A stretch of 64,000 bases of DNA from a virus (IMGVR_UViG_3300044712_000833:1-64000), one strand, 5' to 3'; positions 9,457 to 64,000 are shown, numbered from the stretch's first letter. Made by a program: numbers and translations. Notes: generated from the sequence alone by a model not told the origin.

Positions 9457-9508
9457 CTAGTAATATTTTTGGCGTTTCGTATAACGGCAGCTAAATTTTA
9501 GGAGACAA

Positions 9509-14418: not shown

Positions 14419-14477
14419 ATAAAATGGGACTTTTATTAATACATTAAAACTGCCTGATACAATGTGTCAGGCATCTA

Positions 14478-14550
14478 GCCGTTGTAGCTCAATTGGCAGA
14501 GCAACTGTTTTGTAAACAGTAGGTCTCGAGTTCAAGTCTCGATGGCGGCT
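14478..14550 (+). tRNA. tRNA-Thr(TGT)
   Basis: ACTGT-TTTGTAA-ACAGT anticodon arm, TTCAAGT T-loop; acceptor has 3 G-U pairs; no CCA. Confidence 0.85.
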
Positions 14551-14552
14551 CT

Positions 14553-20794: not shown

Positions 20795-21559
20795 ATGTTT
20801 CGTAATAATATGATTGTATCAATCAAAAGTGATTCAAAGTTTTTTAGAGAAGAAAAAGATGTAGTTAAAATTTCATTTGGAACAGAATATAGTATTTACA
20901 TGAAGAACCAAAATGAGACAGACGCTTTAGTTTCAATTTTAATAGATGGAGAAGATGTTCTTTCTGGAAACAAAATTATTCTTAGGTCTAAATCTATTTT
21001 AGATTTAGAAGGATTCCTTGATGGAAGTCAAGTTAAAAATAAATTTAAGTTTATAGAAAGAATTTCAGAAATTGAAAGTCATAGAGGAATAAAACCCGAT
21101 GATGGAATAATTTCTATTTCTTTTACATATGAAAAAGAAAAACCAAAATATCAACCTTATGTTGTTTATTATCCTAAGTATGAATGGAAATATGTTCCAT
21201 ATACAATAACTTATACCGACTCAAATTCATTAATGGAAAAAAGTGTTTTGGGATCAGCAGGAGTATCTAATGATGTTTCTTGGACTTCCACCTACGCAAA
21301 TTATTCTAATTATATGACTAATTCGATGAATGAAAATGGAATAACCGTAAAAGGAAGTAATATTTCTCAAAACTTTGGATATGGTTGGTTAGGTGAAATG
21401 GAAGATGTTTCTACTACAATGTCTCTAAGATTGATTGGATTCAAGGACGAAACAAAAAACGTATTTACTTCAGATTTGACAGAATGTAAAATCTGTGGAT
21501 ATAAATCAAAAAAGAATTATAATTTTTGTCCTAAATGCGGGACAATAATAATAAAATAA
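20795..21559 (+). CDS. hypothetical protein with C-terminal zinc ribbon
   Basis: CKICG...FCPKCG. Confidence 0.7.
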   Translation: MFRNNMIVSIKSDSKFFREEKDVVKISFGTEYSIYMKNQNETDALVSILIDGEDVLSGNKIILRSKSILDLEGFLDGSQVKNKFKFIERISEIESHRGIKPDDGIISISFTYEKEKPKYQPYVVYYPKYEWKYVPYTITYTDSNSLMEKSVLGSAGVSNDVSWTSTYANYSNYMTNSMNENGITVKGSNISQNFGYGWLGEMEDVSTTMSLRLIGFKDETKNVFTSDLTECKICGYKSKKNYNFCPKCGTIIIK

Positions 21560-21670
21560 TAATTTTATCAATGATTTGAATATTGTCCTGACCAGACAGT
21601 ATTATTTCTTTATCTCATAGATAAATTCTTAATATCTATGTAAAATTAAGGTCATATAAGGAGAAACAAA

Positions 21671-28124: not shown

Positions 28125-28153
28125 TTGACAAAATTCTAGTTTTGTGGTAAAAT
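28125..28153 (+). promoter_or_regulatory. promoter of nuclease cassette
   Basis: TTGACA-N17-TAAAAT with TG. Confidence 0.8.
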
Positions 28154-35339: not shown

Positions 35340-35630
35340 ATGGGAGATGAATTTATAACCTACTCTCCCTTTCTATTTGTGTTTATGAGCGCATATATTT
35401 TATTAGAATTGCGGAGAATTAATAGATTTTTAAATAAGTGGGAAATAAGTAGTTTATCGGTAATACCGCTTCTATTCATGATATTATATCTTTGGATAGG
35501 AATTTTTAATCCTGAAATATCTTTATCTAGATATTGGCTACGTTGTACAATTGCCACATCTCTTGGAATTGGTTGTTATCTTTCGTATTCATATAGTAAA
35601 CTATTACGAAGAGGGGGTAAACGTGTCTAA
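35340..35630 (+). CDS. small membrane protein (3 TM)
   Basis: three hydrophobic stretches. Confidence 0.6.
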   Translation: MGDEFITYSPFLFVFMSAYILLELRRINRFLNKWEISSLSVIPLLFMILYLWIGIFNPEISLSRYWLRCTIATSLGIGCYLSYSYSKLLRRGGKRV

Positions 35631-36118
35631 TGGCTTGGTATACTCCTATTATAGATAATTTTAAAGAAATCCCAGACGATGTAAAAAAGACACTAACAGG
35701 ATTATTATATGGGTTCATTGGATTTTTATCATCTTTTGCTATTGAATGGTATAAAAAAAGAAGAAATCCCAAAGAAGTTGACACAGAGATTTCTACTAAA
35801 CTAGTTATCTCTGCTAAAGATAACGTTGAAATAGCTCAAAATGTAATTGATCTTTTAGAGGAACGATTAAAATCAGAAAGAGAATATTATGACTCTAAAA
35901 TAAATCAATCTAAAACGGATTGTGAAGAGCAAATCATGAGATTGAAAAACAACTATGATAAAGCCCTTTATGAAGTTCAAAAAAAGAACGAAGATGAGAA
36001 AAAAGAACTTTCTGACAAAATAGATCAACTTCAATTAGATAAGCAAAACTTACAAAAAGAAGTAGCTGAATTGAGAGAAAGACTTAAACAGTACGAAAAC
36101 GATGTAAAACGTGAATAA
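35630..36118 (+). CDS. TM plus coiled-coil protein (possible lysis accessory)
   Basis: N-terminal TM, heptad-rich C-terminus. Confidence 0.6.
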   Translation: MAWYTPIIDNFKEIPDDVKKTLTGLLYGFIGFLSSFAIEWYKKRRNPKEVDTEISTKLVISAKDNVEIAQNVIDLLEERLKSEREYYDSKINQSKTDCEEQIMRLKNNYDKALYEVQKKNEDEKKELSDKIDQLQLDKQNLQKEVAELRERLKQYENDVKRE

Positions 36119-36173
36119 AATCAACATTTTATCTGCGTTTTTTTTGAAAAATATAACTGGAGGAATACATAAA

Positions 36174-37946: not shown

Positions 37947-38417
37947 ATGAGTGTAATAAGCTTTGATTTATCAATGAGCAACGTTGGGTATTCGATATTT
38001 AGCGATGACGGTCTGTTTTTTATGACAGGCAGTATAGAAACGAATGGAAAAGATAGTACTCCCAAGAGACTAAAACATATCGCTAAAGAGATGAATAAAT
38101 TAAAAAAAGAAAATCCCAAAACAATAGTAATCGAAAGAGGTTTTTATAGATTTGCAGGATCAACGCAACAAATTTTTCGTGTTCACGGAATAACGAATCT
38201 TATTTTTGCAGATATTGAACAAGTTGAAATACACGCCACATCGGTTAGAAAAACCGTTTTCGGACACGGAAACATGAAAAAAGAACAGGTCGAAGAGTAT
38301 GTTAAACAAAATTATCCTGATTTTAAATATAACAATCTTGACGAAATGGATAGTTTTGTTTTAGGTCTCGCGTATTTCAAACAGAAGGGAATAATCAATG
38401 GCGCGGAAAACTTTTAG
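37947..38417 (+). CDS. ruvC: RuvC-like Holliday junction resolvase
   Basis: FDLS..NVG, VIE, RK..FGHGN.KK, DE.D. Confidence 0.8.
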   Translation: MSVISFDLSMSNVGYSIFSDDGLFFMTGSIETNGKDSTPKRLKHIAKEMNKLKKENPKTIVIERGFYRFAGSTQQIFRVHGITNLIFADIEQVEIHATSVRKTVFGHGNMKKEQVEEYVKQNYPDFKYNNLDEMDSFVLGLAYFKQKGIINGAENF

Positions 38418-39393
38418 AAAAGTGATTGTCACAGAAGAATTATTGCAACAAATAAATCCAGAAAATAAGAAACTGGTTTCAAGGTTTATTAAAGAAAAAT
38501 CAACAAGGTCTAGCGAAGTTACAATAAAAAATTATCAGTCGGATGCTGATATATTCTTTGTTTATAATCTTTTGCATAATGATAATAAACATTTTACAGA
38601 ATTGAAGAAATTAGAAATAATTGATTTTTTTAGTTACGCGATTGAAGAATTGAAGTGGGGTTCTGCTAGGTGTAACAGGATGAGAAGTTTTTTAAGTTCT
38701 TTATCTCAGTATATTGAACGAGTTTTGGATGATGAATTTCCAAATTTTCGAAATATAATATTGAAAGCTGTTCAATCTATCCCTAAAGAAATTAGAAGAG
38801 AAAAAACAATTCTAACAGACGAACAAGTTCAAGATTTGTTAAACCACTTATCTGAAAAAGACTCTCAACAAGCATTTTGGTTAGCTTTAGCTGTTTATTC
38901 TGGAAGTAGATTTTCTGAAATTCTTAGATTTACAACGGACTTAATTGACCCGAATAATTCTGTTTTTGAGGGACTATTTTTAGAGACCGTAAAAGAAATA
39001 AAAACAAAAGGAAGAGGACGAGGTGGAAAAATGCTTCATAAATACATCCTCAAAGAAAAATTTCTTCCTTATTACTACAAATGGCTTGAAGATAGAAAAA
39101 CAATATTGGAAAAAAATAATCTTGACCATAATTATTTATTCATTAAAAACGACGGGTCTCCCGCAACAGATGGTACAGTTAGGTCTTGGATAGCGTCTAT
39201 GGATAGATATTTAGGTTCACCTTTTTACGCCCATGCCTGTAGGCATTTTTTATGTACGGAATTAACTAGAAAAAAAATACCTCAAGCGTTTATTCAATTT
39301 TTGTTCGGTTGGTCAAGTGCCGAAATGTATTCTATTTACAACGATCTGACGGCTAAAGATATGGAATGGTCAGGTCTTGAAAACTTAAAATAA
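38398..39393 (+). CDS. tyrosine recombinase (YomM-like position)
   Basis: SGSRFSE, KTKG, HACRH, FGW, SIY catalytic set. Confidence 0.85.
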   Translation: MARKTFRKVIVTEELLQQINPENKKLVSRFIKEKSTRSSEVTIKNYQSDADIFFVYNLLHNDNKHFTELKKLEIIDFFSYAIEELKWGSARCNRMRSFLSSLSQYIERVLDDEFPNFRNIILKAVQSIPKEIRREKTILTDEQVQDLLNHLSEKDSQQAFWLALAVYSGSRFSEILRFTTDLIDPNNSVFEGLFLETVKEIKTKGRGRGGKMLHKYILKEKFLPYYYKWLEDRKTILEKNNLDHNYLFIKNDGSPATDGTVRSWIASMDRYLGSPFYAHACRHFLCTELTRKKIPQAFIQFLFGWSSAEMYSIYNDLTAKDMEWSGLENLK

Positions 39394-52811: not shown

Positions 52812-52846
52812 AAAATAGCCTTGCGTAAATGCAAGGCTATTTTTTT
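52810..52846. terminator. bidirectional terminator at strand convergence
   Basis: AAAAAATAGCCTTGC/GCAAGGCTATTTTTT. Confidence 0.85.
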
Positions 52847-52872
52847 ACTATTTTATTTATAAAAGATGTATT

Positions 52873-53298
52873 TTATGTATGTCCTGTTGATCCGAATCCG
52901 CCTCTATTTTGTTCGTTAAGAAAATCTACTTCTTCAAATGTTAATTTTGGTTGTTTTTGGATTATTCTAAATTGAAGGATTCTGTCATTGAAATTTATTA
53001 CAGTATCCCTTGTGGCATAAAAATTAACTCTCCAAACATCATTATTTCCTTTGTAAGATTCATCGATGACACCTATAGAATTGGTAAGTAAAACACCCCA
53101 TTTTGAAAACGTAGATGATCTTGGAGCAATATGGGCTTCATATCCTTCTGGTAATTCCATTGATACCCCTAAAGAAAAAATTTTACTTTCAAACTTTTTT
53201 ATCTCTACTGTTTCTGCGGCTCTTAAATCACACCAATCCCCCTTCTCAATCATAGATAGTTTTTCAATTGGCGCATGATATTTAATTTTAATATTCAA
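52873..53298 (-). CDS. dut: trimeric dUTPase
   Basis: DL, PRSS, GVIDESYKG, RILQ, RGGFGSTG. Confidence 0.95.
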   Translation of the reverse strand: MNIKIKYHAPIEKLSMIEKGDWCDLRAAETVEIKKFESKIFSLGVSMELPEGYEAHIAPRSSTFSKWGVLLTNSIGVIDESYKGNNDVWRVNFYATRDTVINFNDRILQFRIIQKQPKLTFEEVDFLNEQNRGGFGSTGHT

Positions 53299-53674
53299 TT
53301 CTTGTCTCCTTAATTCTCATTATTTCAAAATACGGGTATTCTTCAATTGTATAAAAAACCCATCTAATCCCAAATTTTCGTAATTCCTTCATACAATCTT
53401 TACAAGGCTTTGACAATCCCAAAGAACCATCTTTCTTTTCTCGATATACAAATATTGTTGATCCTTTTATAGATTCTTTTCCGCTATTCTTTAATGCCTG
53501 TATTTCTGCATGAAGACCAGTATATCTTGCTTCAGGATGAGTTTTATACTGATTATGACCTACAGAAACAGGCTTTCCCTTTACTACCAAAACAGCACCT
53601 AATTTATGCCTTGGATGCTGTGATAGTTTAGATATATTTTTTGCTAAACGAAAAAGACTTGGAAAATCATTCAT
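53288..53674 (-). CDS. cytidine/dCMP deaminase-family protein
   Basis: HAE...PCKDC zinc motif; LGAV. Confidence 0.85.
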   Translation of the reverse strand: MNDFPSLFRLAKNISKLSQHPRHKLGAVLVVKGKPVSVGHNQYKTHPEARYTGLHAEIQALKNSGKESIKGSTIFVYREKKDGSLGLSKPCKDCMKELRKFGIRWVFYTIEEYPYFEIMRIKETRIEY

Positions 53675-53680
53675 GTATTT

Positions 53681-53709
53681 AGTATATCATGATTTTATTA
53701 TTTTGTCAA
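53681..53709 (-). promoter_or_regulatory. promoter giving a probably leaderless deaminase mRNA
   Basis: TTGACA-N17-TATACT with TG; ATG 7 nt downstream. Confidence 0.75.
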
Positions 53710-53712
53710 GTT

Positions 53713-55338: not shown

Positions 55339-55352
55339 AAAAAACAAACCTC

Positions 55353-56039
55353 CTAAAAATTATATTTTTCTTGCATTAAATCGTTCCATGTTTGATATGT
55401 AAAAGGAACAATTTCTTTAATAATATCTTCAATTGCTTTTGCGTATAATTGAATTTCATGTTGTGCATGTGGATGTCTACGCAACTCTAAAAAATGAAAC
55501 AAATTATGTAAATCAACTGTGGCATAGAAATTTGTGTATAAGAACTGTGGCAGTACCCCTCTTGCTATTTCTCTCGCAACACCAGATTCTATCATGCTTT
55601 CGTATATTTGAACAGCGTCTTCACAAAACATTTTAATAACATCGGAATATTCATCGGAAGATTCGCTGTTCAACAATTCTCCAGTTGACATTTGTTTGTT
55701 ATCAGAAGATTGAATTCTGAATTCCTTTGGTATATAAAACTCTAAATTGTCGCTAGTATATCTTCTTGAAATTTCATTGTAAGACCAAGTTCGATGTCTC
55801 ATCCATTGTCTAGCAATAAAAAGAGGACATTTAATATTGAATGTAAAATTGACAGACTCTAAAGGACTTGTGTGTTTATTCTTCAATAAGTATTCAATTA
55901 GTTTTTTATCCCTGTCAGTTAATGTTTTTGAATAATCATTTCCATATGAGACTCTTGCGTTTCTAACAATGCTTGTATCATCTCCCATACTGTCAATGTA
56001 GTAAACAAAACCTATATTATCTCCTAAAACGTTTTCCAT
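55353..56039 (-). CDS. thyX: FAD-dependent thymidylate synthase
   Basis: RHRTWSYNEISRRY; HAQHEI. Confidence 0.95.
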   Translation of the reverse strand: MENVLGDNIGFVYYIDSMGDDTSIVRNARVSYGNDYSKTLTDRDKKLIEYLLKNKHTSPLESVNFTFNIKCPLFIARQWMRHRTWSYNEISRRYTSDNLEFYIPKEFRIQSSDNKQMSTGELLNSESSDEYSDVIKMFCEDAVQIYESMIESGVAREIARGVLPQFLYTNFYATVDLHNLFHFLELRRHPHAQHEIQLYAKAIEDIIKEIVPFTYQTWNDLMQEKYNF

Positions 56040-56109
56040 AATCCTCCTGAAAATTAAGATATAAATAGGGCGGCTCTCTAAAAGAAAGTCACCCTATTAT
56101 TTTTACTTT

Positions 56110-56295
56110 TTATTCGTCTGGATCAACTTTTTTTGTAAATCCTTCTCCGCGATAAATTATAGACGATGGGAGAATGATTTTTCTTACTTTTGAGCTTCTG
56201 CATTCTGGACATTTTGGTTTTTTATCATCAGAATAAGAAGATTCGTGTTCGAATTGCTTACCGCATTTTTCACATCTAAAATCGTACTTAACCAT
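56110..56295 (-). CDS. FmdB-family zinc ribbon protein
   Basis: YDFRCEKCG..FE...CPEC...GEGF. Confidence 0.8.
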   Translation of the reverse strand: MVKYDFRCEKCGKQFEHESSYSDDKKPKCPECRSSKVRKIILPSSIIYRGEGFTKKVDPDE

Positions 56296-56840
56296 TATTT
56301 CCTCAATTCGTATTTATTTAGCTGATAATAGAAAACGCTTAAGGTATTTTCATGAAATACTTTTCTGTTTGTTGGATCAGTTTGACCCTTTTTCCATAAT
56401 TTTGCTCTGTTCATAAAATCTGATTTATCAATATAACCACAAATCCAAACCTTAGAAAAATCATCTTTTGTAGACATAAAAACATATCTATCAACATTTT
56501 CTAGAGACCTTCGCATTTGATACTCAAAAAACGAAGCTTCAAAATCATCTTTTGGGTCAACTTTTCTATATTTACACTTTACATCCACTTTCATTCCGTC
56601 ATGATGGAAATCAAAAGGAATATCTCTATCTGGAGTTTTTTTGGCAATTGGAAACAGTGATTGATATACTATTTCCCCAACAATCCCCGCCAATCTGCTT
56701 TCCATTCTATCATAAACCGTTCTTGAATTTAAAGAAAGCGAAGAAGAAAATCTTTTTGCAAAAATATCTTTTGCGTAAAAAATTTCATCTTTAGTTGTTC
56801 GATAAAGAAGAAACCCATATTTATCTACTGAAATATTCAT
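56295..56840 (-). CDS. PD-(D/E)xK-like nuclease
   Basis: GE...FDF...VDVK. Confidence 0.5.
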   Translation of the reverse strand: MNISVDKYGFLLYRTTKDEIFYAKDIFAKRFSSSLSLNSRTVYDRMESRLAGIVGEIVYQSLFPIAKKTPDRDIPFDFHHDGMKVDVKCKYRKVDPKDDFEASFFEYQMRRSLENVDRYVFMSTKDDFSKVWICGYIDKSDFMNRAKLWKKGQTDPTNRKVFHENTLSVFYYQLNKYELRK

Positions 56841-56865
56841 TTGACCTCTTTATAAAATTTGTATT

Positions 56866-57018
56866 TTATTTATTAATTCGACGATATTCAGCAAATACGG
56901 CTGATAGCCATCCCCAAGTGCTACCAATCCATCCGTCCTGACCAGTGTGTAGAACCATTACTAAGGATAGAATACAGAAAATAGCGAAAATGTAAATATA
57001 AAAAATTTTAAAATTCAT
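56866..57018 (-). CDS. small membrane protein (50 aa, not in ORF track)
   Basis: MNFKIFYIY...RRINK, bounded by two ATAAAA-N6-TTTTAT sites. Confidence 0.55.
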   Translation of the reverse strand: MNFKIFYIYIFAIFCILSLVMVLHTGQDGWIGSTWGWLSAVFAEYRRINK

Positions 57019-57043
57019 AATAAAATTGACCTTTTATTCATCT

Positions 57044-57340
57044 TTACAAATCGGAATATGACTTAATGGCTTCGAACACCAACCTTATAGTATCATATTC
57101 TTCATCATTTATCATAGATGTTTTTTCTACTCTAAATCCACCACTTGAAATAAATGTTACTCTCTCATCCTTAAGAAAATCATCAACTAATCCAGAAACA
57201 AACTCTCTCAACTCTTCTGTAGATGGAACGTGATAGCCAGTGGGAAGTACAAGTTTCCAATCTAAAATCTCCATTATTTCTTTGGCTTTTTCGAATTTAA
57301 AACCGTCTAATAAATCTTTTTTAATTTTTTCTTTATCCAT
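57044..57340 (-). CDS. hypothetical protein
   Basis: ORF; SSGGF motif. Confidence 0.65.
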   Translation of the reverse strand: MDKEKIKKDLLDGFKFEKAKEIMEILDWKLVLPTGYHVPSTEELREFVSGLVDDFLKDERVTFISSGGFRVEKTSMINDEEYDTIRLVFEAIKSYSDL

Positions 57341-57355
57341 AAAACCTCTATTTTA

Positions 57356-57709
57356 TCAAAACCCAATTAAAGAAAACGCAGAAATCGGAAAGTTACATCC
57401 TTTTATATAGTGATATAACTGAATACTTACTTTTTTGCATTCTCCACAACGCCCTACACCATGAGCCAAACCCCATTCAAAACTACCAAATAAACCATCT
57501 AATTCTGATCCACATTTTGGGCATTTGTTGTCAATTATCCAAACTGCCTTATAATTTGAGAAATCTTCTATTGTAAGATTGCATTTATGTTCTTCATTGA
57601 ATAATTTAAGATTTTCTTCTGAAATCAAAATTCCATTAATTGAAAAATGTTCTTTTCCAAATTCATTACAAGCGACTTCATAAAAAGATTCTAACGTGTG
57701 TTCTGTCAC
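57356..57709 (-). CDS. Zn-finger hypothetical protein
   Basis: CPKC...FEWGLAHG...CGEC. Confidence 0.65.
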   Translation of the reverse strand: MTEHTLESFYEVACNEFGKEHFSINGILISEENLKLFNEEHKCNLTIEDFSNYKAVWIIDNKCPKCGSELDGLFGSFEWGLAHGVGRCGECKKVSIQLYHYIKGCNFPISAFSLIGF

Positions 57710-57903
57710 TGAATTTTCTCCACTTCTCCTGTATATGGGTCTAGTTTTAGATTTCCTTTTACTCTAAAATTATCTGACTTAGATACTTTTTCCCACCAAA
57801 AAGCATCGTCGTATCCCTGCCAAGTAACTACTTTACCAATTCCGTCTATATCAAAAAAGTTCCAAAATAAATCATTACCAATTTGATTGAGTTTAGCTTT
57901 CAT
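57706..57903 (-). CDS. hypothetical protein
   Basis: coupled ORF. Confidence 0.55.
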   Translation of the reverse strand: MKAKLNQIGNDLFWNFFDIDGIGKVVTWQGYDDAFWWEKVSKSDNFRVKGNLKLDPYTGEVEKIQ

Positions 57904-57917
57904 AAAAAATAACCCTT

Positions 57918-58802
57918 TTATTGGATTGTTAGAACTTTTTTAAACATGGTATCAATGTTGTCAGCGATAGGGTATCTCTCCATACAAGTTGAACTTTTTG
58001 AAAATTCTCTGGTGACTAAATCGACGTACATTGTGTATTTACCATCATCACCCATGTAAAACTCTTCCCAATATTGATTAGGTAATTTAGATTTCATGTT
58101 TAATTGATTCAAAGCCAAGTTATCAAAACTAATAATAGGAAAGCCCTTTGATAGAATCATTATGTTTTCAGATAACTCGCTCATGTTTTTCTCTACGGAA
58201 GGAGAGTAAAATTTTAGCCCTCTTCTAAGATGTTTATATCCCAAAACTAAAATCTTAATTCCTTTATTTGATAATTTTTTGTAATGATCCAAACTGGTGA
58301 CTCCGTTTATTGTATGAATAATGGCGTTTTCATATTTATCAATAAGTGAAATAAAGTTATCGCTTGGTTTTATCATGGAAACACCTATTCCATGAGCTAA
58401 CCCTTTTGAGACAATATCTTTAATTAGAAGCTGTTTTCTTTCAAAATGAATTTGGTTTATTGTTAAATTAGCAATGATATTTCGTTCTTTTAGTTTATAG
58501 AGGAACGGTATTAGAAATGGGTGATCTAACGGATTACCTCCGCCAATTGCTAATTCGGTAAACGGACTCAGTGTATTAATAAAATCTACATTTAAGTCCC
58601 CATGTAATCCTAACTTGATTGAGTCCTCATGACAATACAAACATCCAGCATCACAATAATTTGTTATTTTTAAATCAATGTTTTCTGGAAAAGATGGCGT
58701 TAAATTATCAAGATCATTTTCTCTAATCTTTGTTCCATCTGAATAAAGTGAAACAGTATAGTTACCGTTTTTATAAGACCCAAGCAAGTTAGTTTTTTTC
58801 AT
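57918..58802 (-). CDS. radical SAM enzyme
   Basis: CDAGCLYC (CxxxCxxC), GGGNP, TIN. Confidence 0.9.
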   Translation of the reverse strand: MKKTNLLGSYKNGNYTVSLYSDGTKIRENDLDNLTPSFPENIDLKITNYCDAGCLYCHEDSIKLGLHGDLNVDFINTLSPFTELAIGGGNPLDHPFLIPFLYKLKERNIIANLTINQIHFERKQLLIKDIVSKGLAHGIGVSMIKPSDNFISLIDKYENAIIHTINGVTSLDHYKKLSNKGIKILVLGYKHLRRGLKFYSPSVEKNMSELSENIMILSKGFPIISFDNLALNQLNMKSKLPNQYWEEFYMGDDGKYTMYVDLVTREFSKSSTCMERYPIADNIDTMFKKVLTIQ

Positions 58803-58808
58803 TATTTA

Positions 58809-59135
58809 TTATCCATCGTATCCATAATAACCGAATGCTACAATTTCGTCTCCAGAAGGAGTTTTGTGAACCTGTTCAAAAGTTTCCATGTCTCTATCAA
58901 AAAAATCACTATAGGTCATTCTTTCTTCCGAAATAAGTTCCTCAATATCTCCATCATGCCATTTTTTGATTGATTCTGAGTGGTCTTTTTCTACTTGTTC
59001 TTTTGTTTTTAGTTTCTCGTCATCAAGTAGAAGTTCTCCGCTTTTCCACTTTTCAAATTCTTTTTTAGACACAATTACAAGAGTGTGAGTACTTGAAGAG
59101 TTTGTTTCAAAAGTCCCAATTCTAATCTGCTTCAT
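58809..59135 (-). CDS. FETNSSSTH-motif protein 1
   Basis: MKQIRIGTFETNSSSTHTL. Confidence 0.75.
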   Translation of the reverse strand: MKQIRIGTFETNSSSTHTLVIVSKKEFEKWKSGELLLDDEKLKTKEQVEKDHSESIKKWHDGDIEELISEERMTYSDFFDRDMETFEQVHKTPSGDEIVAFGYYGYDG

Positions 59136-59147
59136 TTAATTCTCCTT

Positions 59148-59690
59148 TTAATGATTATCGTTATCTACAGCAATAAAATACTTTTCTGTAAATATTAGTT
59201 CTTTTATAAATTCTTTAAACGACTTTTCATTCATTGAAAAAATATCATTTCCAGATTTATAAAAAATATTTGGCTCTAATGATTGATGGTCGATATACCC
59301 AAAATCATAATATCCGACATTCTTTTCTAATTCAATCTTCTTTCCAGAAATATTGAGTACAACATCGTCTATCCAAATGAAGTATTTAGAATTTAAAATC
59401 GCTTTAAGTTTTGCATCTGAATATTCTTTTTCCAATTCTTCTCTTTTTGGATCATCCCATGCAGGAATACGAATCGCCTTTACTCCATCGTCTTCATATT
59501 GAATTAGGGTAATTAAATATGAGATTTTATCTTCGGGGGACTTTAGTTCTTCATATCCCCAACCATATTCTCCAAAACCAATATTTTCAAAAACAATATT
59601 TCTTTTAATGTTCAATAGCGAATTCGTCAAAACCAAGCTATGTGTGCTGGACGAATTGGTTTCAAAAGTTCCGTGTCTTATTTGTTTCAT
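59148..59690 (-). CDS. FETNSSSTH-motif protein 2
   Basis: MKQIRHGTFETNSSSTHSL; GYIDHQS. Confidence 0.75.
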   Translation of the reverse strand: MKQIRHGTFETNSSSTHSLVLTNSLLNIKRNIVFENIGFGEYGWGYEELKSPEDKISYLITLIQYEDDGVKAIRIPAWDDPKREELEKEYSDAKLKAILNSKYFIWIDDVVLNISGKKIELEKNVGYYDFGYIDHQSLEPNIFYKSGNDIFSMNEKSFKEFIKELIFTEKYFIAVDNDNH

Positions 59691-59725
59691 TTTTTTTATT
59701 TTCCTTTATAAAATGCGCCTTTTAT

Positions 59726-60439
59726 TTATATTCCATATTCTTCAAATAAATCCCTTTGAGGGGCAAAGTCAATTCCGAATATCTGCTTTTCAAGTGAAAG
59801 TCTTTCAATTACGGCTTCTCTGAATTCTTTATGCCTTTTCCCGGAATTTTTCCCTTGAATAGAGACTCTCCATGTATTGTTTTCAGACCTATGAACGCCA
59901 ATAATTCCTGTTTTATTGTTTTTTGATATACTTACGTTTCTGGCATTTTCTTCTCTTGTAACGAGTCTGAGATTTTCTTTTCTGTTATCTAACCTATTTC
60001 TATTTATATGATCTACTATTTCTCCCTCCTTTGCTCCGATTATAATCCTATGAAGTCTTACTTTTTTAAAATTATTTTCCGTGTCATGAGAAACAGCATA
60101 ACCATCGTCAAGCGTCCATTTATATCGTTTTATTTTTTCATAATCGGAAGAATCTATCAAAAACCCATCGGTTTCAGATAAAATTCCTAGCGTAGTTTCT
60201 TCATCTATCATGATGTATTCGTTGTATTTTTTACTTAACTTTGATGTGGTTTCTGGAATTAAATGACCGCAAGACTTAGTATGACCTCTGACTAGAGAAT
60301 TTGATTTTACAAAACAAGTTTTTCCACAAGAACATAAGCATTCCCATTCAATGTGTTTTCCGCTTTCACCTCTCTTTGATATTCTGACTACTTTCAATTC
60401 TCCGAATATTTTATTTGACAAATCATTGTATTTTTTCAT
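59726..60439 (-). CDS. HNH homing endonuclease with Zn repeat and AP2-like C-terminus
   Basis: LHR...VDHINRNRLDNRKENLR...N; WECLCSCG..SCG. Confidence 0.85.
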   Translation of the reverse strand: MKKYNDLSNKIFGELKVVRISKRGESGKHIEWECLCSCGKTCFVKSNSLVRGHTKSCGHLIPETTSKLSKKYNEYIMIDEETTLGILSETDGFLIDSSDYEKIKRYKWTLDDGYAVSHDTENNFKKVRLHRIIIGAKEGEIVDHINRNRLDNRKENLRLVTREENARNVSISKNNKTGIIGVHRSENNTWRVSIQGKNSGKRHKEFREAVIERLSLEKQIFGIDFAPQRDLFEEYGI

Positions 60440-60446
60440 AATTGTT

Positions 60447-60475
60447 ATGATACCACAAAACCCTTGATTTGTCAA
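60447..60475 (-). promoter_or_regulatory. promoter giving a probably leaderless HNH mRNA
   Basis: TTGACA-N17-TATCAT with TG; ATG 8 nt downstream. Confidence 0.7.
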
Positions 60476-60478
60476 GGG

Positions 60479-60943
60479 TTAAGTATAAGTCAATATTCTT
60501 TTGAACCGAAATGTTCCTCTACCATATTCTTTGGCTGTTTTATTTACCACATATCTAATGTAATATTTTTTCCAAAACCACATTTTAGAAACGTCGAGAG
60601 CAAACCTCAATTCAGGAGTCGTTCTAAACTCCACTATGGTTTTGTCTTCTTCGGTCTTCCCTTTTTGATAATCTACCAAATAATCGCCCTCATTATCGCT
60701 AAACAGATATTCGGGGTAAGGGACTCCGAATAATAAATAAAATGCTTCTTTTATAAATATTGAAACTTTATTGTTTACTAAAAAGTTTTCAATTTTATTC
60801 CAAAAGTTCACGAAAGAAATTATTTTCTTTTCTGTAACCTTCAATTCTTCTTCAGATTTGAATTTGAATCCCTTTAGTTTTTTATCTTCATTTACTGCTT
60901 TTATAATCCCCATTACGATTTGAACATGATTGTTACTTAGCAT
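60479..60943 (-). CDS. hypothetical protein
   Basis: ORF in operon. Confidence 0.6.
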   Translation of the reverse strand: MLSNNHVQIVMGIIKAVNEDKKLKGFKFKSEEELKVTEKKIISFVNFWNKIENFLVNNKVSIFIKEAFYLLFGVPYPEYLFSDNEGDYLVDYQKGKTEEDKTIVEFRTTPELRFALDVSKMWFWKKYYIRYVVNKTAKEYGRGTFRFKRILTYT

Positions 60944-61355
60944 ACTTCTCCCTGCTTATTTCAGTGAGTACGTCACTGTAAGAATAATTTATTTCTTCTA
61001 AAATATCGACTCGATTTTTCAAGTCGGCATTGTTTAATACAAACATCTTTTCAGAACTAAGCTCGTCCCTAGCTTTTTTCAAAACCTGTTCCCAAGTCTT
61101 TTTCACTTCTAAAGGAACAATGCCATATTCTACATAACCTGCTTTATCAAACAACTTAGTAGCAAAGTCTAGAGCGTCCAATTTGCTTTCAAATTTCTTA
61201 GATTTGTTAAAATATTCAAAAACTCTGGCAGAAACCATTTCTCCAGAGTGATTAGTATCCAAATAAGACCAAAATAAATTATCAATCGCAAACGCTTCAG
61301 TTACTCTAAATTGATCTTTCAATTCTAAAATTAATATAGCATTATCCGCTGACAT
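60933..61355 (-). CDS. hypothetical protein
   Basis: MSADNAI...EYGI. Confidence 0.6.
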   Translation of the reverse strand: MSADNAILILELKDQFRVTEAFAIDNLFWSYLDTNHSGEMVSARVFEYFNKSKKFESKLDALDFATKLFDKAGYVEYGIVPLEVKKTWEQVLKKARDELSSEKMFVLNNADLKNRVDILEEINYSYSDVLTEISREKYAK

Positions 61356-61623
61356 CGTTTTCCTTTGGTTCCTTTGCAAATTTTGTTTGAGTTTCTTTCC
61401 ACTTTATAGATATTCCATTGCTGAAAATCAAATCGTCAAATTCTTTCTTTGTTCCTCTATTTGCAGAATCATAAATTGTGTCACTTAATTTTTCTAGAAC
61501 AGTCTTGTCTTCCAATTTGGATTTCAATAATTTTTCATATCTTCTAACTTCTTCTTGTGCTTGAGAAGCAACCATATAATAGGACAATATTAGATAATAT
61601 TCATCTGGCTCCAATAATTGCAT
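61342..61623 (-). CDS. hypothetical protein
   Basis: SD GGAGG. Confidence 0.6.
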   Translation of the reverse strand: MQLLEPDEYYLILSYYMVASQAQEEVRRYEKLLKSKLEDKTVLEKLSDTIYDSANRGTKKEFDDLIFSNGISIKWKETQTKFAKEPKENDVSG

Positions 61624-61820
61624 TAATTAAATCCTCCTTCTGCATAGTATAGATTATTGTAATATTGTGTCAAAACACCTTTTTTATAATTTCCATCCTC
61701 ATAGCATAAATAAATTCTATAAGAAAGTTGAATTTCCCACTCTCTTTTTATTCCCATTGCTAAACAAAGAGTTCTATACTCCATGTAAGAAAACGGCTCT
61801 TTAAAATTTCCAGTATTCAT
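61623..61820 (-). CDS. hypothetical protein
   Basis: coupled ORF. Confidence 0.55.
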   Translation of the reverse strand: MNTGNFKEPFSYMEYRTLCLAMGIKREWEIQLSYRIYLCYEDGNYKKGVLTQYYNNLYYAEGGFN

Positions 61821-62803
61821 TTATTTTTCCTCAAAATGCTTTCTACATATTTAATCGCTTGTTCTGTAGTTTTTATTTCTCTTAAATCTACTTCAATGTA
61901 AATTCCATGTTTACGAGCAAATCTGCGCTTGAGTCTATCTTTGTGTTTTTGGTATTCAAACTCTTCTTCGGGAAATGTTTTATTTTTCTTGGATTGTCTC
62001 TTGTGCCAGTCATGAATCTTGTAATGATGTTCTCCGTGAATCTCTATATAAACTCCATTTAAGTTTAAATTCTTTCCTCCAAAAACATAAATATCAAAGG
62101 GCAAAGGGAAATTAGTTTCAGGATTTATAAATATTGGATATTCTTTTTCTCCATGATATTTACTAAGAATATAATTTTTTAATTCGGTGGCTACCTTTGA
62201 TTCGCGTTGTTTCATGGAACAAATTCCACATCCTTTTCCACTTGTTCTGTGATTTATTGAAGAAAGATATTCGTGTCCGAATTGACACAACCACCAAACT
62301 TTTATTCCTTCTCCATAAGTGACATCTCTTGGAGTTAAATTTCCGTTTTTAGTTGAATGCCACTCTTTCGCTATGTCTGGTCTTTGAGAGGCGAGATTGT
62401 GATATACCCCAACTTGTTTTCCATCGCAAATTCCACAACCAATTTTGTGAAATATATTATTCCAACTCATGTTTGGATAATCTTTGCATTTATTACAATA
62501 TAAATTTAATTTTGAAAAACTCCCTTTATATTCATTGTCTTTTGATAATTTAAATTGGCTATTATTTAGATTTAACCATAAGGATATATTCTCTAAAGAA
62601 AAAGGATTTGATTTATCCACAAAATAAGGAGAATGACCTCTAATTAAGTTATGTAAATAAACATCATACTTATATCCTATTTTATCTTTAAAAACAACTT
62701 TTATTCTATTTTTATTTTCAATATAATTATCAATATAAATATATCCACAACTTTCTACCTCCATTTTTATCTTATCTTTTGTTTTTACAACCTCATTTTT
62801 CAT
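61817..62803 (-). CDS. free-standing Zn-finger plus Vsr-like endonuclease, close paralog of 23354..24337
   Basis: shared FVDKSNPFSLENISLWL, HNLA.QRPDIAKEWH, IEIHGE.HY. Confidence 0.8.
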   Translation of the reverse strand: MKNEVVKTKDKIKMEVESCGYIYIDNYIENKNRIKVVFKDKIGYKYDVYLHNLIRGHSPYFVDKSNPFSLENISLWLNLNNSQFKLSKDNEYKGSFSKLNLYCNKCKDYPNMSWNNIFHKIGCGICDGKQVGVYHNLASQRPDIAKEWHSTKNGNLTPRDVTYGEGIKVWWLCQFGHEYLSSINHRTSGKGCGICSMKQRESKVATELKNYILSKYHGEKEYPIFINPETNFPLPFDIYVFGGKNLNLNGVYIEIHGEHHYKIHDWHKRQSKKNKTFPEEEFEYQKHKDRLKRRFARKHGIYIEVDLREIKTTEQAIKYVESILRKNK

Positions 62804-62853
62804 TTTATTTTTCCTGATAAAAGTAATATTTTATTAATAAAGCAATGATTTTA

Positions 62854-63081
62854 TTATTCTTTTTCCCAATCATCACAGGTAAATTCTGCCATTAGGATAC
62901 CCTCGTCTTTATGAGCAATTGGAAAATCGTGTTTTTTACAAATATACCCTTTCAAATCATAAATAGAATGTTGACAAAAAAGACATATTTTAGCGTCCTC
63001 TACCCTCTTAAAAGACGGAACTTTCTTTCCTAATTCCATTGTCTGAAAAGGTCGAATTGGATAAGCATCTTTTATTTCCAT
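62854..63081 (-). CDS. small Cys-rich protein
   Basis: CLFC..C..H...CD.W. Confidence 0.55.
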   Translation of the reverse strand: MEIKDAYPIRPFQTMELGKKVPSFKRVEDAKICLFCQHSIYDLKGYICKKHDFPIAHKDEGILMAEFTCDDWEKE

Positions 63082-63085
63082 GTTA

Positions 63086-63289
63086 TTATCCTTTCGGTAA
63101 CATTTCCCATATGAATTTTGTGAAATCCATATCAACGATTGAAATTCCTTCTTGAATATCCCATAAGGAAACTGGAGAATTTAAATCTAATTTTCCTTCT
63201 ATAACAATAGTTCTTCCATATTCAGGGCTTTCATAAATAATTCCTAAAGCCACATCTCCGTTTACTATAACGTATTTTACTTTATTCAT
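63086..63289 (-). CDS. hypothetical protein
   Basis: ORF in array. Confidence 0.55.
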   Translation of the reverse strand: MNKVKYVIVNGDVALGIIYESPEYGRTIVIEGKLDLNSPVSLWDIQEGISIVDMDFTKFIWEMLPKG

Positions 63290-63317
63290 ATTATCCGTTA
63301 TAAAATCGGAATTTTAT

Positions 63318-63500
63318 TTATATAAATTTGTGGTATTTGCACTTGGGACAGTAATTATAATAAGATGTTACTTTTATATAATTGCCATTCCAATCAATGA
63401 GATTCAATCCCATAAGTTTTCCGAGAACCATGTTTTTGCTTTCACATATGGGACATAATTCATTATCTAATAATATAATATATTCCACGTTTTGATTCAT
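63318..63500 (-). CDS. small Zn-ribbon protein
   Basis: CPIC...CPKC. Confidence 0.55.
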   Translation of the reverse strand: MNQNVEYIILLDNELCPICESKNMVLGKLMGLNLIDWNGNYIKVTSYYNYCPKCKYHKFI

Positions 63501-63502
63501 GT

Positions 63503-63868
63503 TTATTCAATTATCTCAACAAGACTGTCATCGTCAATTAACTTTCTCATAGCAATCCATGTAAACTGAGGATATTCCATTTCCACAGGATATTGATACA
63601 TAACAACAACACAATTATTACAATCAATCTCTCCCCAATTATTTTCCACATCTTGTCGTCCAACCACTATTCCACTAAAAATATCTTTCTTGTGGTCTTT
63701 TATTTCTTCTCCTTCATCTTTAAAGAACTTTAAGTCTTCTTCAAAATACCAATATACTCTTTTTCCAGAAGTTAAAGAACAGTGTATTTTATCATAATTG
63801 TTTAAATTTCTAGGAATATTTTCATTGTCTAAATCTAATTGAAGATGATATAAATATGTTTTCCTCAT
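63503..63868 (-). CDS. hypothetical protein
   Basis: SD GAGGAG. Confidence 0.6.
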   Translation of the reverse strand: MRKTYLYHLQLDLDNENIPRNLNNYDKIHCSLTSGKRVYWYFEEDLKFFKDEGEEIKDHKKDIFSGIVVGRQDVENNWGEIDCNNCVVVMYQYPVEMEYPQFTWIAMRKLIDDDSLVEIIE

Positions 63869-64000
63869 TATAAATTAAAACTCCTCTGGAAAAATTTTCT
63901 TATAATATTCTTGAAGAAGATATTCCTCTGTTAAATAGTGAGTTCCACAAATTGAACATTCCATGCAACCGCATTCGTCACAGATATATAATTTATTATT

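What the first reader, a model, noticed from the sequence alone, without database searches (positions are those of the whole stretch)
56852..63317. ATAAAA-N6-TTTTAT palindromes punctuate gene boundaries like cassette sites
Seen: exact 18-bp sites with variable 6-bp spacers at 14419, 21551, 36115, 52859, 56852, 57020, 57339, 59708, 62817 and 63300, and 1-mismatch sites at 57904 and 62837. Almost all overlap or abut a stop codon; at 57339 the spacer supplies the SD and the arm overlaps the ATG. Single small genes are bracketed (56866-57018, 57044-57340). Known: tyrosine recombinase sites are inverted arms around 6-8 bp spacers. Inference: recombination sites for integron-like gain and loss of accessory genes, or else protein-binding or RNA-processing sites. 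AT richness makes a few chance hits possible but does not explain the position bias.
Basis: partly seen in the sequence, partly recalled or inferred. Interest (0 to 1): 0.7.

Follow-up and report, generated by a model that had tools for sequence, protein, structure and literature searches.

The report
Addressed palindromes marking swappable phage genes
An 18-base palindrome with a fixed 6-base gap sits between the early genes of this phage and of the model phage SPbeta, and related phages keep the same sites in the same order while the genes beside them differ, so the sites look like fixed docking points for exchanging accessory genes.

Summary
ATAAAA-N6-TTTTAT occurs 11 times in the window (0.16 expected) and 56 times in the 129.7-kb phage genome, only with a 6-base gap. 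53 of the 56 lie among the minus-strand early genes. They follow a stop codon, often the TAA inside the arm, and precede the ribosome-binding site or overlap the ATG.

The core TAAAA-N6-TTTTA is enriched in distant relatives, including a 49.5% GC phage and Bacillus phage SPbeta and its genus. It is not enriched in three related phages that lack a YomM-like tyrosine recombinase.

Each site has its own spacer. Related genomes keep the same spacers in the same order while flanking genes are unrelated. In six Spbetavirus genomes, 246 of 376 same-spacer pairs lose homology on one or both sides, against 103 of 892 control intergenic 16-mers.

I read the sites as address-tagged junctions for exchanging gene cassettes. 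The enzyme is not shown. A YomM-like recombinase is the best candidate, and short-homology recombination at a regulatory palindrome is the main rival.

Other first-stage notes of this scan flagged the same motif in this genome. My literature searches found no description of it.

The parts
56852..56869 (.). Exact site, spacer TACAAA on the sense (minus) strand. The TAA in the arm is the stop of 56866-57018, and an SD and ATG of 56295-56840 follow.
   Evidence: The same 18-mer lies before the homologous 181-aa gene in L050, L051 and L049, with four unrelated upstream genes.
57020..57037 (.). Exact site, sense spacer GGTCAA.
   Evidence: The same 18-mer occurs in G001, L050 and L049, with four different upstream and four different downstream genes. 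In G001 it is joined directly to the 181-aa gene, and the 50-aa gene and the 56852 site are absent.
57339..57356 (.). Exact site, sense spacer TAGAGG. The SD lies in the spacer and the ATG of 57044-57340 overlaps the arm.
   Evidence: The same 18-mer occurs in L051 with unrelated genes on both sides.
57904..57921 (.). One-mismatch site, sense spacer GGGTTA.
   Evidence: The exact version with the same spacer stands at the same place in L050.
59708..59725 (.). Exact site, sense spacer GGCGCA. A stop codon abuts it.
   Evidence: The same 18-mer occurs in L050 with unrelated genes on both sides.
60737..60754 (.). It lies inside the 154-aa ORF 60479-60943.
   Evidence: It is conserved with that ORF in G001 and L050.
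62817..62834 (.). Exact site, sense spacer TATTAC.
   Evidence: The same 18-mer occurs in G001 and L050, and all flanking genes differ among the three genomes.
62837..62854 (.). One-mismatch site, 2 nt from the 62817 site.
63300..63317 (.). Exact site, sense spacer TTCCGA. A stop codon abuts it.
   Evidence: The same 18-mer occurs in G001 and L050, and only the upstream gene of G0 and L050 is shared.
52859..52876 (.). Exact site at the end of the minus-strand early region. The stop codon lies in the arm.
   Evidence: It is conserved in G001 and L050.
14419..14436 (.). Exact site in the plus-strand late region, abutting the stop of 13546-14418.
   Evidence: The same 18-mer occurs in G004.
21551..21568 (.). 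Exact site. The stop of 20795-21559 lies in the spacer.
   Evidence: The same 18-mer occurs in G003, G004 and G005.
36115..36132 (.). Exact site. The TAA of the arm is the stop of 35630-36118.
   Evidence: The same 18-mer occurs in G002.
38398..39393 (+). YomM-like tyrosine recombinase gene just upstream of the tape-measure gene. It is the candidate (not shown) protein for the sites.
   Evidence: PF00589 match. R, HxxR, W and Y are kept. It is homologous to SPbeta yomM (27% identity, E 2e-18). For the phyletic pattern.
56866..57018 (-). 50-aa gene bracketed by two sites. It is a cassette that is absent or replaced in relatives.
57044..57340 (-). 98-aa gene bracketed by two sites. No homolog was found at that place in G001, L050, L051 or L049.

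Best explanation
The 18-bp sites are address-tagged junctions at which related phages of the SPbeta type exchange accessory genes. Each site has two fixed inverted arms ((A/T)TAAAA and TTTTA(T/A)) and a 6-bp spacer of its own. The arms are the same at every site and in very distant relatives, which points to one conserved, probably dimeric, phage protein that recognises them. The spacers differ between sites but are kept at the same position in related genomes. Exchange between two genomes therefore joins only matching positions and keeps gene order. The site also works as a ready-made gene border: a TAA in either orientation closes the upstream frame, and the spacer or the bases just after it carry the ribosome-binding site. 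Shown here: the enrichment, the placement, the conservation across relatives, and the coincidence of homology ends with the sites. Inferred: that recombination happens in the site, and that the enzyme is the conserved YomM-like tyrosine recombinase, with the spacer acting as the overlap region. My odds: about 0.8 that the sites are preferred exchange points, and about 0.35 that a tyrosine recombinase does it.
For: Enrichment and geometry:
- 56 exact copies against 0.26 expected, with the gap strictly 6.
- In a 49.5% GC relative, 28 core sites against 0.11 expected.
- SPbeta has 34 core sites (reversed-pattern control 2), again only with gap 6.
- Five more Spbetavirus genomes have 30-36 core sites each.

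Placement, for the 53 minus-region sites:
- The upstream stop is the TAA in the arm at 25 sites and abuts or overlaps the arm at 8.
- The ATG overlaps the arm at 9 sites and lies 10-20 nt downstream at 29.

The window's own clade (G0, G001, L050, L051, L049):
- The same spacers occur in the same order.
- Of 23 same-spacer pairs with both neighbouring genes scored, none had both neighbours homologous, 9 had one, and 14 had none. The sequences are shown.
- G001 lacks the 50-aa gene, and there one site is joined directly to the next gene.

Six Spbetavirus genomes:
- Of 376 same-spacer pairs, both flanks were homologous in 130, one flank in 134, and neither in 112.
- Controls: shared 16-mers anywhere gave 885, 12 and 2 of 899. 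Shared intergenic 16-mers gave 789, 80 and 23 of 892.
- Of 44 addresses, 32 have more than one flank type on at least one side and 17 on both. Identity stops within 0-1 nt of the 18-mer in 234 of 348 non-homologous sides.
- Where a touching flank is shared and both genomes have a site, the spacer is identical in 238 cases, differs by 1-2 nt in 15, and is a different address in 2.

Candidate enzyme:
- A tyrosine recombinase gene sits in the tail module of G0, G001, G002, G006, G007, SPbeta, phi3T, SPR and Goe12.
- R, HxxR, H/W and Y are kept in the G0-type proteins.
- It was not found in three related YonO-encoding phages, which also lack the motif: core counts 0, 2 and 4 against reversed-pattern controls 6, 8 and 5.
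- A 6-bp spacer between inverted arms is the Xer-type geometry (established knowledge, recalled).
Against: - In the window's clade, homology breakpoints were not significantly more frequent at motif junctions: 7 of 11 against 13 of 32 motif-less junctions (Fisher p = 0.29). Of 44 breakpoints, 20 lay at motif-less junctions and 14 lay elsewhere.
- The laboratory hybrids Hyb2 and Hyb3 of phi3Ts and SPbeta crossed over inside stretches of 1.4 and 4.8 kb shared by both parents, not at a site. Their authors report 15 of 16 recombination sites in homologous regions (passages).
- SPbeta and Goe12 YomM have Lys in place of the second catalytic Arg.
- MT835481 has a YomM homolog but only 4 core sites against 0.87 expected.
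- G008 has 34 core sites but no detected YomM homolog. That record is 47% complete and has two other PF00589 proteins.
- The arms of 5-6 bp are shorter than the 11-13 bp arms of well-studied recombinase sites (recalled).
- The tight fit to stop codons and ribosome-binding sites would also suit a role in expression.
- Pairs among six related genomes are not independent events.
- Identical 18-mers could serve short-homology recombination without any site-specific enzyme.
Confidence: 0.55

Rival explanations
1. The palindrome is primarily a regulatory operator for a dimeric DNA-binding protein. One example would be a late-made protein that blocks early transcription gene by gene, in the manner of mycobacteriophage stoperators or of the recombinase-fold repressor MrpR/SroF. 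Gene exchange at the sites would then be a by-product of short-homology recombination by phage annealing proteins, as proposed for PeSLs of T4-type phages.
For: - The arms are strictly conserved and the sites are concentrated in the early region: 53 of 56 in G0 and 26 of 34 in SPbeta beyond 69 kb.
- This phage family is known to use a recombinase-fold protein as a repressor that binds a repeated element (PMC10516654 and bioRxiv 10.1101/2025.11.27.690993, passages).
- SPbeta YomM lacks one catalytic Arg.
- SPbeta encodes a Sak4-like annealing protein and a Holliday junction resolvase (annotation).
- The laboratory hybrids arose by homologous recombination.
- PeSLs set a precedent for conserved intergenic motifs as exchange points (PMC2839356 section 13; PMC4122927 abstract).
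Against: - A regulator does not need site-specific spacers. Yet the spacers persist through replacement of both neighbours.
- 16-18 bp is very short for homologous recombination (recalled).
- Other shared intergenic 16-mers sit at homology ends far less often: 103 of 892 against 246 of 376.
- No promoter is associated with the sites. Sigma-A type promoters lie at other, longer junctions.
Confidence: 0.25
2. The motif acts in the mRNA. A weak A-U hairpin between cistrons would be bound or cut by a phage or host factor, to process the polycistronic early transcripts or to couple termination of one gene to initiation of the next.
For: - The site sits between the stop codon and the SD, or carries the SD in its loop with the ATG at the foot of the stem.
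- In G008 and G0 the SD starts 1-4 nt after the arm.
- Sense-strand position 7 is almost never A (1 of 53), and position 12 is A in 37 of 53.
Against: - Six A-U pairs make a very weak stem, and the arms stay A/T-only even in a 49.5% GC genome. This argues for sequence recognition rather than structure.
- There is no covariation. In G008 the outermost position varies independently in the two arms: 9 exact, 17 one-arm and 6 both-arm copies.
- Among one-mismatch sites in G0, I count 8 wobble-compatible and 6 incompatible transitions by eye.
- In SPbeta the distance to the next SD is variable.
- An RNA role does not explain conserved spacers beside unrelated genes.
Confidence: 0.08
3. The sites are cut by a phage endonuclease inside the variable spacer, leaving site-specific overhangs. 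Fragments from co-infecting genomes would then be re-joined only at matching addresses, a natural counterpart of ordered assembly with interrupted-palindrome restriction enzymes.
For: - The interrupted-palindrome geometry fits, and exchange respects the address.
- The genomes carry many HNH endonuclease and DNA methyltransferase cassettes.
- SPbeta encodes a ligase-like protein (annotation).
Against: - The only HNH protein shared by G0, SPbeta, G006 and G008 (G0 75228-75839, the yoqL type) matched only 22 phage records. SPR was not among them, and some genomes hold copies at variable places. It behaves as a mobile cassette, not a core factor.
- No conserved endonuclease candidate remains.
- Cutting its own genome at 30-60 places would be costly.
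Confidence: 0.05
4. The motif is a promoter or a terminator, or a chance product of A/T richness together with stop and start signals.
For: - The genome is A/T rich.
- TAA, A-rich leaders and TTTTATG starts are common here.
- One SPbeta site is annotated as a stem-loop in the record.
Against: - Shuffles give 0.16 copies against 11 observed.
- Only gap 6 is enriched.
- There are 16 exact copies in a 49.5% GC genome against 0.01 expected.
- No -35 or -10 element lies at a fixed distance, and in 9 cases the ATG overlaps the arm.
- There is no G+C stem or T run.
Confidence: 0.02

Closest known systems
PeSLs (promoter-early stem-loops) of T4-type phages (Arbiol et al. 2010, PMC2839356; Comeau et al. 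2014, PMC4122927)
   Same: Both are short conserved motifs between small accessory genes. Both start at the upstream stop codon and end at the SD and start codon of the next gene. Both are concentrated in the plastic early regions, and both serve as points of exchange between otherwise unrelated sequences.
   Different: PeSLs are composite sigma-70 promoters plus stable G+C stem-loops that terminate transcription, and exchange is ascribed to homologous recombination between any PeSLs. The sites here are 18 bp and have no promoter or stable stem. They have strictly fixed 5-6 bp arms and a position-specific 6-bp spacer, and exchange keeps to matching spacers (238 identical against 2 different addresses).
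Tyrosine-recombinase core sites with a 6-8 bp overlap region (Xer/dif, Cre/lox, Flp/FRT), and cassette exchange between heterospecific sites as used in genetic engineering (recalled)
   Same: Inverted arms surround a 6-bp spacer. Spacer identity decides which sites can pair. Conserved tyrosine recombinase genes are present.
   Different: The arms are only 5-6 bp. There are tens of sites per genome, each with another spacer. No binding or cleavage has been shown. SPbeta YomM lacks one catalytic Arg.
Integron attC sites and IntI
   Same: Both systems have promoterless accessory genes, each followed directly by a recombination-type palindrome at its 3' end, and both link cassette turnover to a tyrosine recombinase.
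   Different: There is no attI or common promoter at one end. attC sites are 55-140 bp imperfect palindromes that travel with their cassette. Here the site stays in place while the genes on either side change (L-only 66 and R-only 68 of 376 pairs).
Stoperators of cluster A mycobacteriophages such as L5 (recalled), and the SPBRE/MrpR(SroF) system of SPbeta (PMC10516654; bioRxiv 10.1101/2025.11.27.690993)
   Same: Many copies of one short site are spread over a phage genome, often in tiny intergenic gaps that touch stop and start codons. In SPbeta a recombinase-fold protein binds a repeated element.
   Different: Stoperators are asymmetric 13-bp sites oriented with transcription. SPBRE is a 15-bp motif (24-26 bp operator) in about ten promoter regions, bound by a monomer that lacks the catalytic Tyr. 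The sites here are palindromic, lie at stop/start junctions, and number 30-60.

Membership tests
Tyrosine-recombinase core site | Two inverted binding arms around a 6-8 bp central region | tested here: met
   The arms ATAAAA and TTTTAT occur with the gap strictly 6. The arms are short: 5 bp are conserved in distant phages.
Tyrosine-recombinase core site | A cognate recombinase with the catalytic residues R..K..HxxR..H/W..Y | tested here: inconclusive
   G0 38398-39393 and its homologs in G001, G002, G006, G007 and MT835481 keep R, HxxR, H/W and Y. SPbeta and Goe12 YomM have HxxK. The Xer-like protein at G0 85742-86602 also keeps them. Which protein is cognate, if any, is unknown.
Tyrosine-recombinase core site | Binding, cleavage at the spacer edges, and strand exchange that needs spacer identity | not testable with these tools
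   There is only the indirect pattern that exchange joins sites of identical spacer.
Integron | attC: a 55-140 bp imperfect palindrome carried by each cassette | tested here: not met
   The sites are 18 bp with perfect arms, and they stay in place while either neighbour changes.
Integron | An intI gene with an adjacent attI and a common promoter at the head of the array | tested here: not met
   The recombinase genes lie in the tail module (38398) and inside the early region behind their own promoter (85742-86602). Sigma-A type promoters are scattered along the array.
PeSL | A sigma-70 type promoter inside the motif | tested here: not met
   No -35 or -10 element lies at a fixed distance in the position matrix of 53 sites. 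Promoters lie at other junctions.
PeSL | A stable stem-loop that terminates transcription | tested here: not met
   The stem would be six A-T pairs with no T run. No fold energy was computed.
PeSL | Serves as the point of exchange between unrelated genes in plastic regions | tested here: met
Stoperator (L5-type) | An asymmetric site in one orientation relative to transcription, bound by the immunity repressor | tested here: not met
   The site is palindromic. The only asymmetry lies in the flanks and in spacer positions 7 and 12. Binding was not tested.
SPBRE / MrpR operator | A 15-bp motif in about ten promoter regions of SPbeta | tested here: not met
   SPbeta has 34 core sites placed after stop codons of early genes, not in the listed promoter regions. 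The SPBRE sequence itself was not seen, because figures are not held.

The most novel reading that the evidence does not exclude
SPbeta-type phages carry a natural, genome-wide cassette-exchange system. Thirty to sixty heterospecific recombination sites share arms read by the conserved, so far functionless, YomM tyrosine recombinase. Each site has a private 6-bp overlap sequence. Co-infecting or resident relatives can therefore swap counter-defence and other accessory genes position by position without losing gene order or expression signals.
Probability: 0.3. Interest if true: 0.9.

Novelty: new variant of a known kind. Interest (0 to 1): 0.78.

Why it matters
Phage genomes are mosaics, and it has long been argued whether the joints arise at special linker sequences or at random followed by selection. 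Here a defined 18-bp element with a position-specific spacer sits at the joints. It does so in a metagenomic phage, in distant relatives of very different base composition, and in SPbeta, a genetically tractable model phage of Bacillus subtilis. That makes the question directly testable by crosses, site mutations and gene knockouts.

The exchanged genes include several DNA methyltransferases and nucleases. The sites may therefore be how these phages renew their anti-defence repertoire. If a dedicated recombinase reads the sites, it would also give a function to the conserved orphan gene yomM. It could also provide a ready set of orthogonal recombination sites for engineering.

Tried and rejected
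- Host-type promoter: rejected. Clear TTGACA-N17-TATAAT promoters lie at other, longer junctions, and the motif has no boxes at a fixed distance.
- Covariation as a sign of an RNA stem: the five ACAAAA-N6-TTTTGT copies in G001 turned out to be the spacer of a sigma-A type promoter on repeated nuclease cassettes. Position 1 in G008 varies independently in the two arms.
- YoqL-type HNH endonuclease as the site-reading factor: it looked promising, being present in G0, SPbeta, G006 and G008 and absent from four motif-poor relatives. I rejected it because only 22 phage records hold it, SPR is not among them, and copies sit at variable places.
- YonO-like RNA polymerase: present in motif-less relatives too.
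- Second recombinase (G0 85742-86602): no relative was found in viral contigs.
- SPBRE/MrpR: a different element.
- Laboratory hybrids: the crossovers lie in long shared stretches, not at sites. The one non-homologous joint reported 'following yosA' could not be placed, because supplements are closed and the extrachromosomal DNAs are not in the collection.
- Sequencing runs: two DNA holders were listed and no RNA holder. Laying their contigs on 52000-64000 gave fragmentary cover and no joint at a site. One contig departs 4 nt after the 60737 site. I draw nothing from this.
- The megablast of 52000-64000 against phage records found nothing.
- Scans with two site 18-mers mostly gave chance hits. 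They did lead to G006 and G008.
- The seed-anchored test of spacer conservation was uninformative.
- Literature: no paper in the library holds the motif string. Searches for SPBRE, PeSL, SroF, SPbeta plus palindromic/intergenic, SPbeta-like plus recombination, and yomM found no description of this palindrome, and neither did term searches inside three SPbeta papers. Lazarevic et al. 1999, the SPbeta genome paper, is not held and may describe it. Supplements of all papers were closed.

Full report
**1. The observation**

The pattern ATAAAA-N6-TTTTAT occurs 11 times in the window, where dinucleotide shuffles give 0.16. The motif is therefore kept almost letter-perfect.

The window is the first 64 kb of a single 129,715-bp virus record (CheckV 91% complete). 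The whole record has 56 exact copies. Every other gap length from 0 to 13 gives 0-2 copies, and the arms in the opposite order give 0-4. A blind scan of all 6-base palindromic arm pairs with gaps of 0-12 puts this motif first by a wide margin: 56 observed against 0.26 expected.

**2. Placement**

Genes run on the plus strand up to about 52.8 kb. This part holds the portal, a tape measure and other late genes. From there to the end, genes run on the minus strand: ribonucleotide reductase, ThyX, DNA polymerase, helicase, many small genes, and RNA ligase and kinase. 53 of the 56 sites lie in the minus-strand part.

Read on the sense strand, the layout is: stop codon, ATAAAA, six variable bases, TTTTAT, then the ribosome-binding site and ATG. 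With my own simple gene calls, the 53 sites break down as follows:
- The upstream stop is the TAA inside the first arm at 25 sites.
- The stop overlaps or abuts the arm at 8 sites.
- The stop lies 4-9 nt before the arm at 11 sites.
- The ATG is formed by the last two bases of the second arm plus G at 9 sites. There the spacer carries the GG of the ribosome-binding site.
- The ATG lies 10-20 nt downstream at 29 sites.

Junctions without the motif are of three kinds: overlapping stop/start pairs, bare ribosome-binding sites, or longer gaps with clear TTGACA-N17-TATAAT promoters. The motif is therefore not the host-type promoter. The position matrix shows no boxes at a fixed distance.

**3. Relatives of the window's phage**

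Protein-guided searches found these relatives:
- G001, a 43.6-kb virus contig (DNA polymerase 96% identical) with 13 exact sites.
- G002, a more distant contig (47% identical) with 3 exact and 9 core sites.
- From metagenome contigs, L050 (20.5 kb of a 128-kb contig, 10 sites), L051 (3 sites) and L049 (3 sites).

Put in the same orientation, these genomes carry the same spacers in the same order: CGCTTA, TTCCGA, TATTAC, GAAGCA, GGCGCA, GGGTTA, TAGAGG, GGTCAA, TACAAA, TACATC. The genes between them differ.

- The site with spacer GGTCAA (window 57020) occurs in four genomes. It has four unrelated upstream genes and four unrelated downstream genes.
- The site TATTAC (62817) occurs in three genomes with all neighbours unrelated.
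- The site TACAAA (56852) always precedes the same 181-aa gene but follows four unrelated genes.
- Of 23 same-spacer pairs in which both neighbouring genes could be scored, none had both neighbours homologous, 9 had one, and 14 had none. Smith-Waterman scores were at most 41 for the unrelated genes and at least 224 for the related ones.
- G001 lacks the bracketed 50-aa gene. The GGTCAA site there is joined directly to the 181-aa gene.
- The one-mismatch site at 57904 is an exact site with the same spacer in L050.
- The exchanged genes include DNA methyltransferases of one family at different places in different genomes, an HNH nuclease, and a DUF4379 protein.

**4. A result against the reading**

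I counted blastn homology ends between G0 and G001, L050 and L051. 7 of 11 motif junctions carried an end, against 13 of 32 motif-less junctions (Fisher p = 0.29). Of 44 ends, 20 lay at motif-less junctions and 14 lay elsewhere. Gene borders in general are breakpoints in this clade, and the sample is too small to set the motif apart by this measure.

**5. Wider distribution**

Two site 18-mers used as search words mostly hit by chance. They also led to two unrelated-looking records:
- G006: 108 kb, 49.5% GC, 16 exact and 28 core sites against 0.11 expected.
- G008: 70 kb, 29% GC, 9 exact and 34 core sites.

In both, the sites again lie between a stop codon and a ribosome-binding site. The outermost arm base is free there, so the conserved core is TAAAA-N6-TTTTA.

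Following that lead, I found that Bacillus phage SPbeta itself has 34 core sites (reversed-pattern control 2), only with gap 6. 26 of them lie in its early region beyond 69 kb. With the record's annotation, the TAA of the arm is the stop codon of yoqG, yoqS, yoqY, yorT, mtbP, yorZ, yosC, yosF and yosR. The methyltransferase gene mtbP has a site on each side.

phi3T, SPR, Goe11, Goe12 and Goe13 have 12-18 exact sites and 30-36 core sites each.

G0 shares 9 genes with SPbeta by tblastn, among them a YonO-like RNA polymerase and YomM. Three other YonO-encoding phages show no enrichment. Enterocloster phages PMBT24 and CB457P2 and Thomasclavelia phage TR-TP1 have 0, 2 and 4 core sites, against 6, 8 and 5 for the reversed control.

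**6. The test on six isolated Spbetavirus genomes**

I took every pair of core sites with the same spacer in two genomes and asked whether the 150 nt on each side are homologous. Homology meant a local score of at least 35. Random flanks had a median of 11 and a 95th percentile of 16.

| Set compared | n | Both flanks homologous | One flank | Neither |
|---|---|---|---|---|
| Same-spacer core-site pairs | 376 | 130 | 134 (66 left, 68 right) | 112 |
| Shared unique 16-mers anywhere | 899 | 885 | 12 | 2 |
| Shared 16-mers in intergenic DNA away from the motif | 892 | 789 | 80 | 23 |

Chance identity of spacers can account for only a few pairs: about 0.3-0.6 per genome pair by my arithmetic from about 34 sites and 4,096 possible spacers.

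Counted by address instead of by pair, 44 spacers occur in at least two genomes. 32 of them have more than one flank type on at least one side, and 17 on both. One address has four left types and five right types in six genomes. On the non-homologous side, identity ends within 0-1 nt of the 18-mer in 234 of 348 cases.

Where the 40 nt touching a site are shared and both genomes have a site, the spacer is identical in 238 cases, differs by 1-2 bases in 15, and is a different address in 2.

The order of addresses is collinear between SPbeta and Goe12 for the 19 shared early-region addresses that I read off. Between the addresses GATCAA and TTTGTC lie 1,380 bp (mtbP) in SPbeta and phi3T, and 442 bp in Goe11, Goe12 and Goe13 (positions).

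The pairs are not independent events, and six genomes are few. The contrast with the controls is large all the same.

**7. What reads the sites**

The arms are identical at all sites and across hosts of very different base composition. That points to a phage protein, probably a dimer.

- **YomM-like tyrosine recombinase (best candidate).** The gene lies in the tail module, just upstream of the tape-measure gene in G0 (38398-39393) and nearby in SPbeta (yomM) and Goe12 (annotated xerC_2). Homologs occur in G001, G002, G006, G007, SPbeta, phi3T, SPR, Goe12 and MT835481. The G0-type proteins keep R, HxxR, H/W and Y, but SPbeta and Goe12 have HxxK. No homolog was found in the three motif-less phages. 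MT835481 has the protein but only 4 core sites against 0.87 expected. G008 has the motif but no detected homolog in a half-complete record. This is a correlation on about a dozen records, not a demonstration. No paper among the ten that my two-term search listed mentions yomM.
- **Second recombinase.** G0 also has a Xer-like recombinase with intact residues at 85742-86602.
- **YoqL-type HNH nuclease.** It behaves as a mobile cassette and was rejected.
- **YonO.** It is shared with motif-less phages.

**8. Mechanism**

The facts that need explaining are these:
- The arms are the same everywhere.
- The gap is exactly 6.
- Each position has a private spacer.
- Either neighbour, or both, can be replaced with the joint at the edge of the site.
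- Exchange is almost always between equal spacers.

A tyrosine-recombinase site explains all five, because such enzymes bind inverted arms and need identical overlap sequences in the two partners (established knowledge, recalled). The main rival is that the palindrome is an operator or another expression signal, and that phage annealing proteins use the identical 18 bases as minimal homology, as proposed for PeSLs. Several points favour the rival:
- The laboratory hybrids of phi3Ts and SPbeta recombined in long homologous stretches.
- SPbeta YomM lacks one catalytic Arg.
- The family already uses a recombinase-fold protein as a repressor.

The two readings are not exclusive. An RNA role, a cut-and-rejoin endonuclease, and a promoter or terminator are less likely, for the reasons given under the rivals.

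**9. Comparison with known systems, and novelty**

The element works like a PeSL (an exchange point at gene borders) and is built like a recombinase core site. It is not an integron, a stoperator or SPBRE by their defining features (see the membership table).

I found no description of it. The motif strings are absent from the library, and term searches in three SPbeta papers found nothing. The SPbeta record annotates one of the sites only as a stem-loop. The 1999 genome paper could not be read, so prior description cannot be excluded. Other first-stage readers of this scan flagged the same motif in overlapping windows of this genome.

**10. Verdict**

The sites are very probably the preferred joints of gene exchange. 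The enzymology is open.

Noticed in passing
G000 119,000-128,300 (loci L007, L008), beyond the window: A second repeated element sits in at least eight longer junctions. It has one or two copies of a TTTGCAATG-like word and a GGGCGAAAAT-like word just upstream of TATAAT-type -10 boxes. It may be an operator set for early promoters, perhaps the counterpart of SPBRE.
   Followed up: no
window 28128-28145; G001 9414, 23186, 28454, 32306, 38808: ACAAAA-N6-TTTTGT forms the spacer of TTGACA...TATACT-type promoters on repeated nuclease cassettes. It is similar in shape to the motif but is a separate, promoter-borne palindrome.
   Followed up: partly
window 5422-8130 (+): The 902-aa protein is homologous to SPbeta YonO, the single-chain RNA polymerase, by tblastn to SPbeta 61911-63491. 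Homologs occur in Enterocloster and Thomasclavelia phages and in G006. This defines a wide group of YonO-encoding siphoviruses.
   Followed up: partly
window 53713-55347 (-) versus G001: In G001 the ribonucleotide reductase gene is split around an extra 240-aa ORF that G0 lacks. In L050 it is 660 aa, against 541 aa in G0. An intein or a homing-endonuclease insertion is likely.
   Followed up: no
window 60737-60754: This site lies inside the 154-aa ORF 60479-60943 and is conserved with it in G001 and L050. The L051 homolog is 121 aa and lacks the site. In run X1 one contig leaves the sequence 4 nt after the site, and another has an extra base in the spacer.
   Followed up: partly
G000 66399-67100 and 102177-102875; G001, L050: Several paralogous N6/N4 DNA methyltransferase genes sit at different addresses in different genomes: five in the compared 22-kb part of G001 and two in L050. 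They look like exchangeable anti-restriction cassettes.
   Followed up: partly
G000 106,218-109,520 and 86,669-87,586 (loci L007, L006): The genome holds an RNA repair set: an Rnl-type RNA ligase, a polynucleotide kinase-like ATPase and a nucleotidyltransferase.
   Followed up: no
SPbeta NC_001884.1 113,664-115,059 and the same addresses in phi3T, Goe11, Goe12, Goe13: The methyltransferase gene mtbP lies exactly between two sites. The same two addresses enclose 442 bp instead of 1,380 bp in the three Goe phages.
   Followed up: partly
window 9384-9457 and 14478-14551: tRNA-Asn(GTT) and tRNA-Thr(TGT) genes lie in the late region. The second lies 42 nt after the site at 14419.
   Followed up: no
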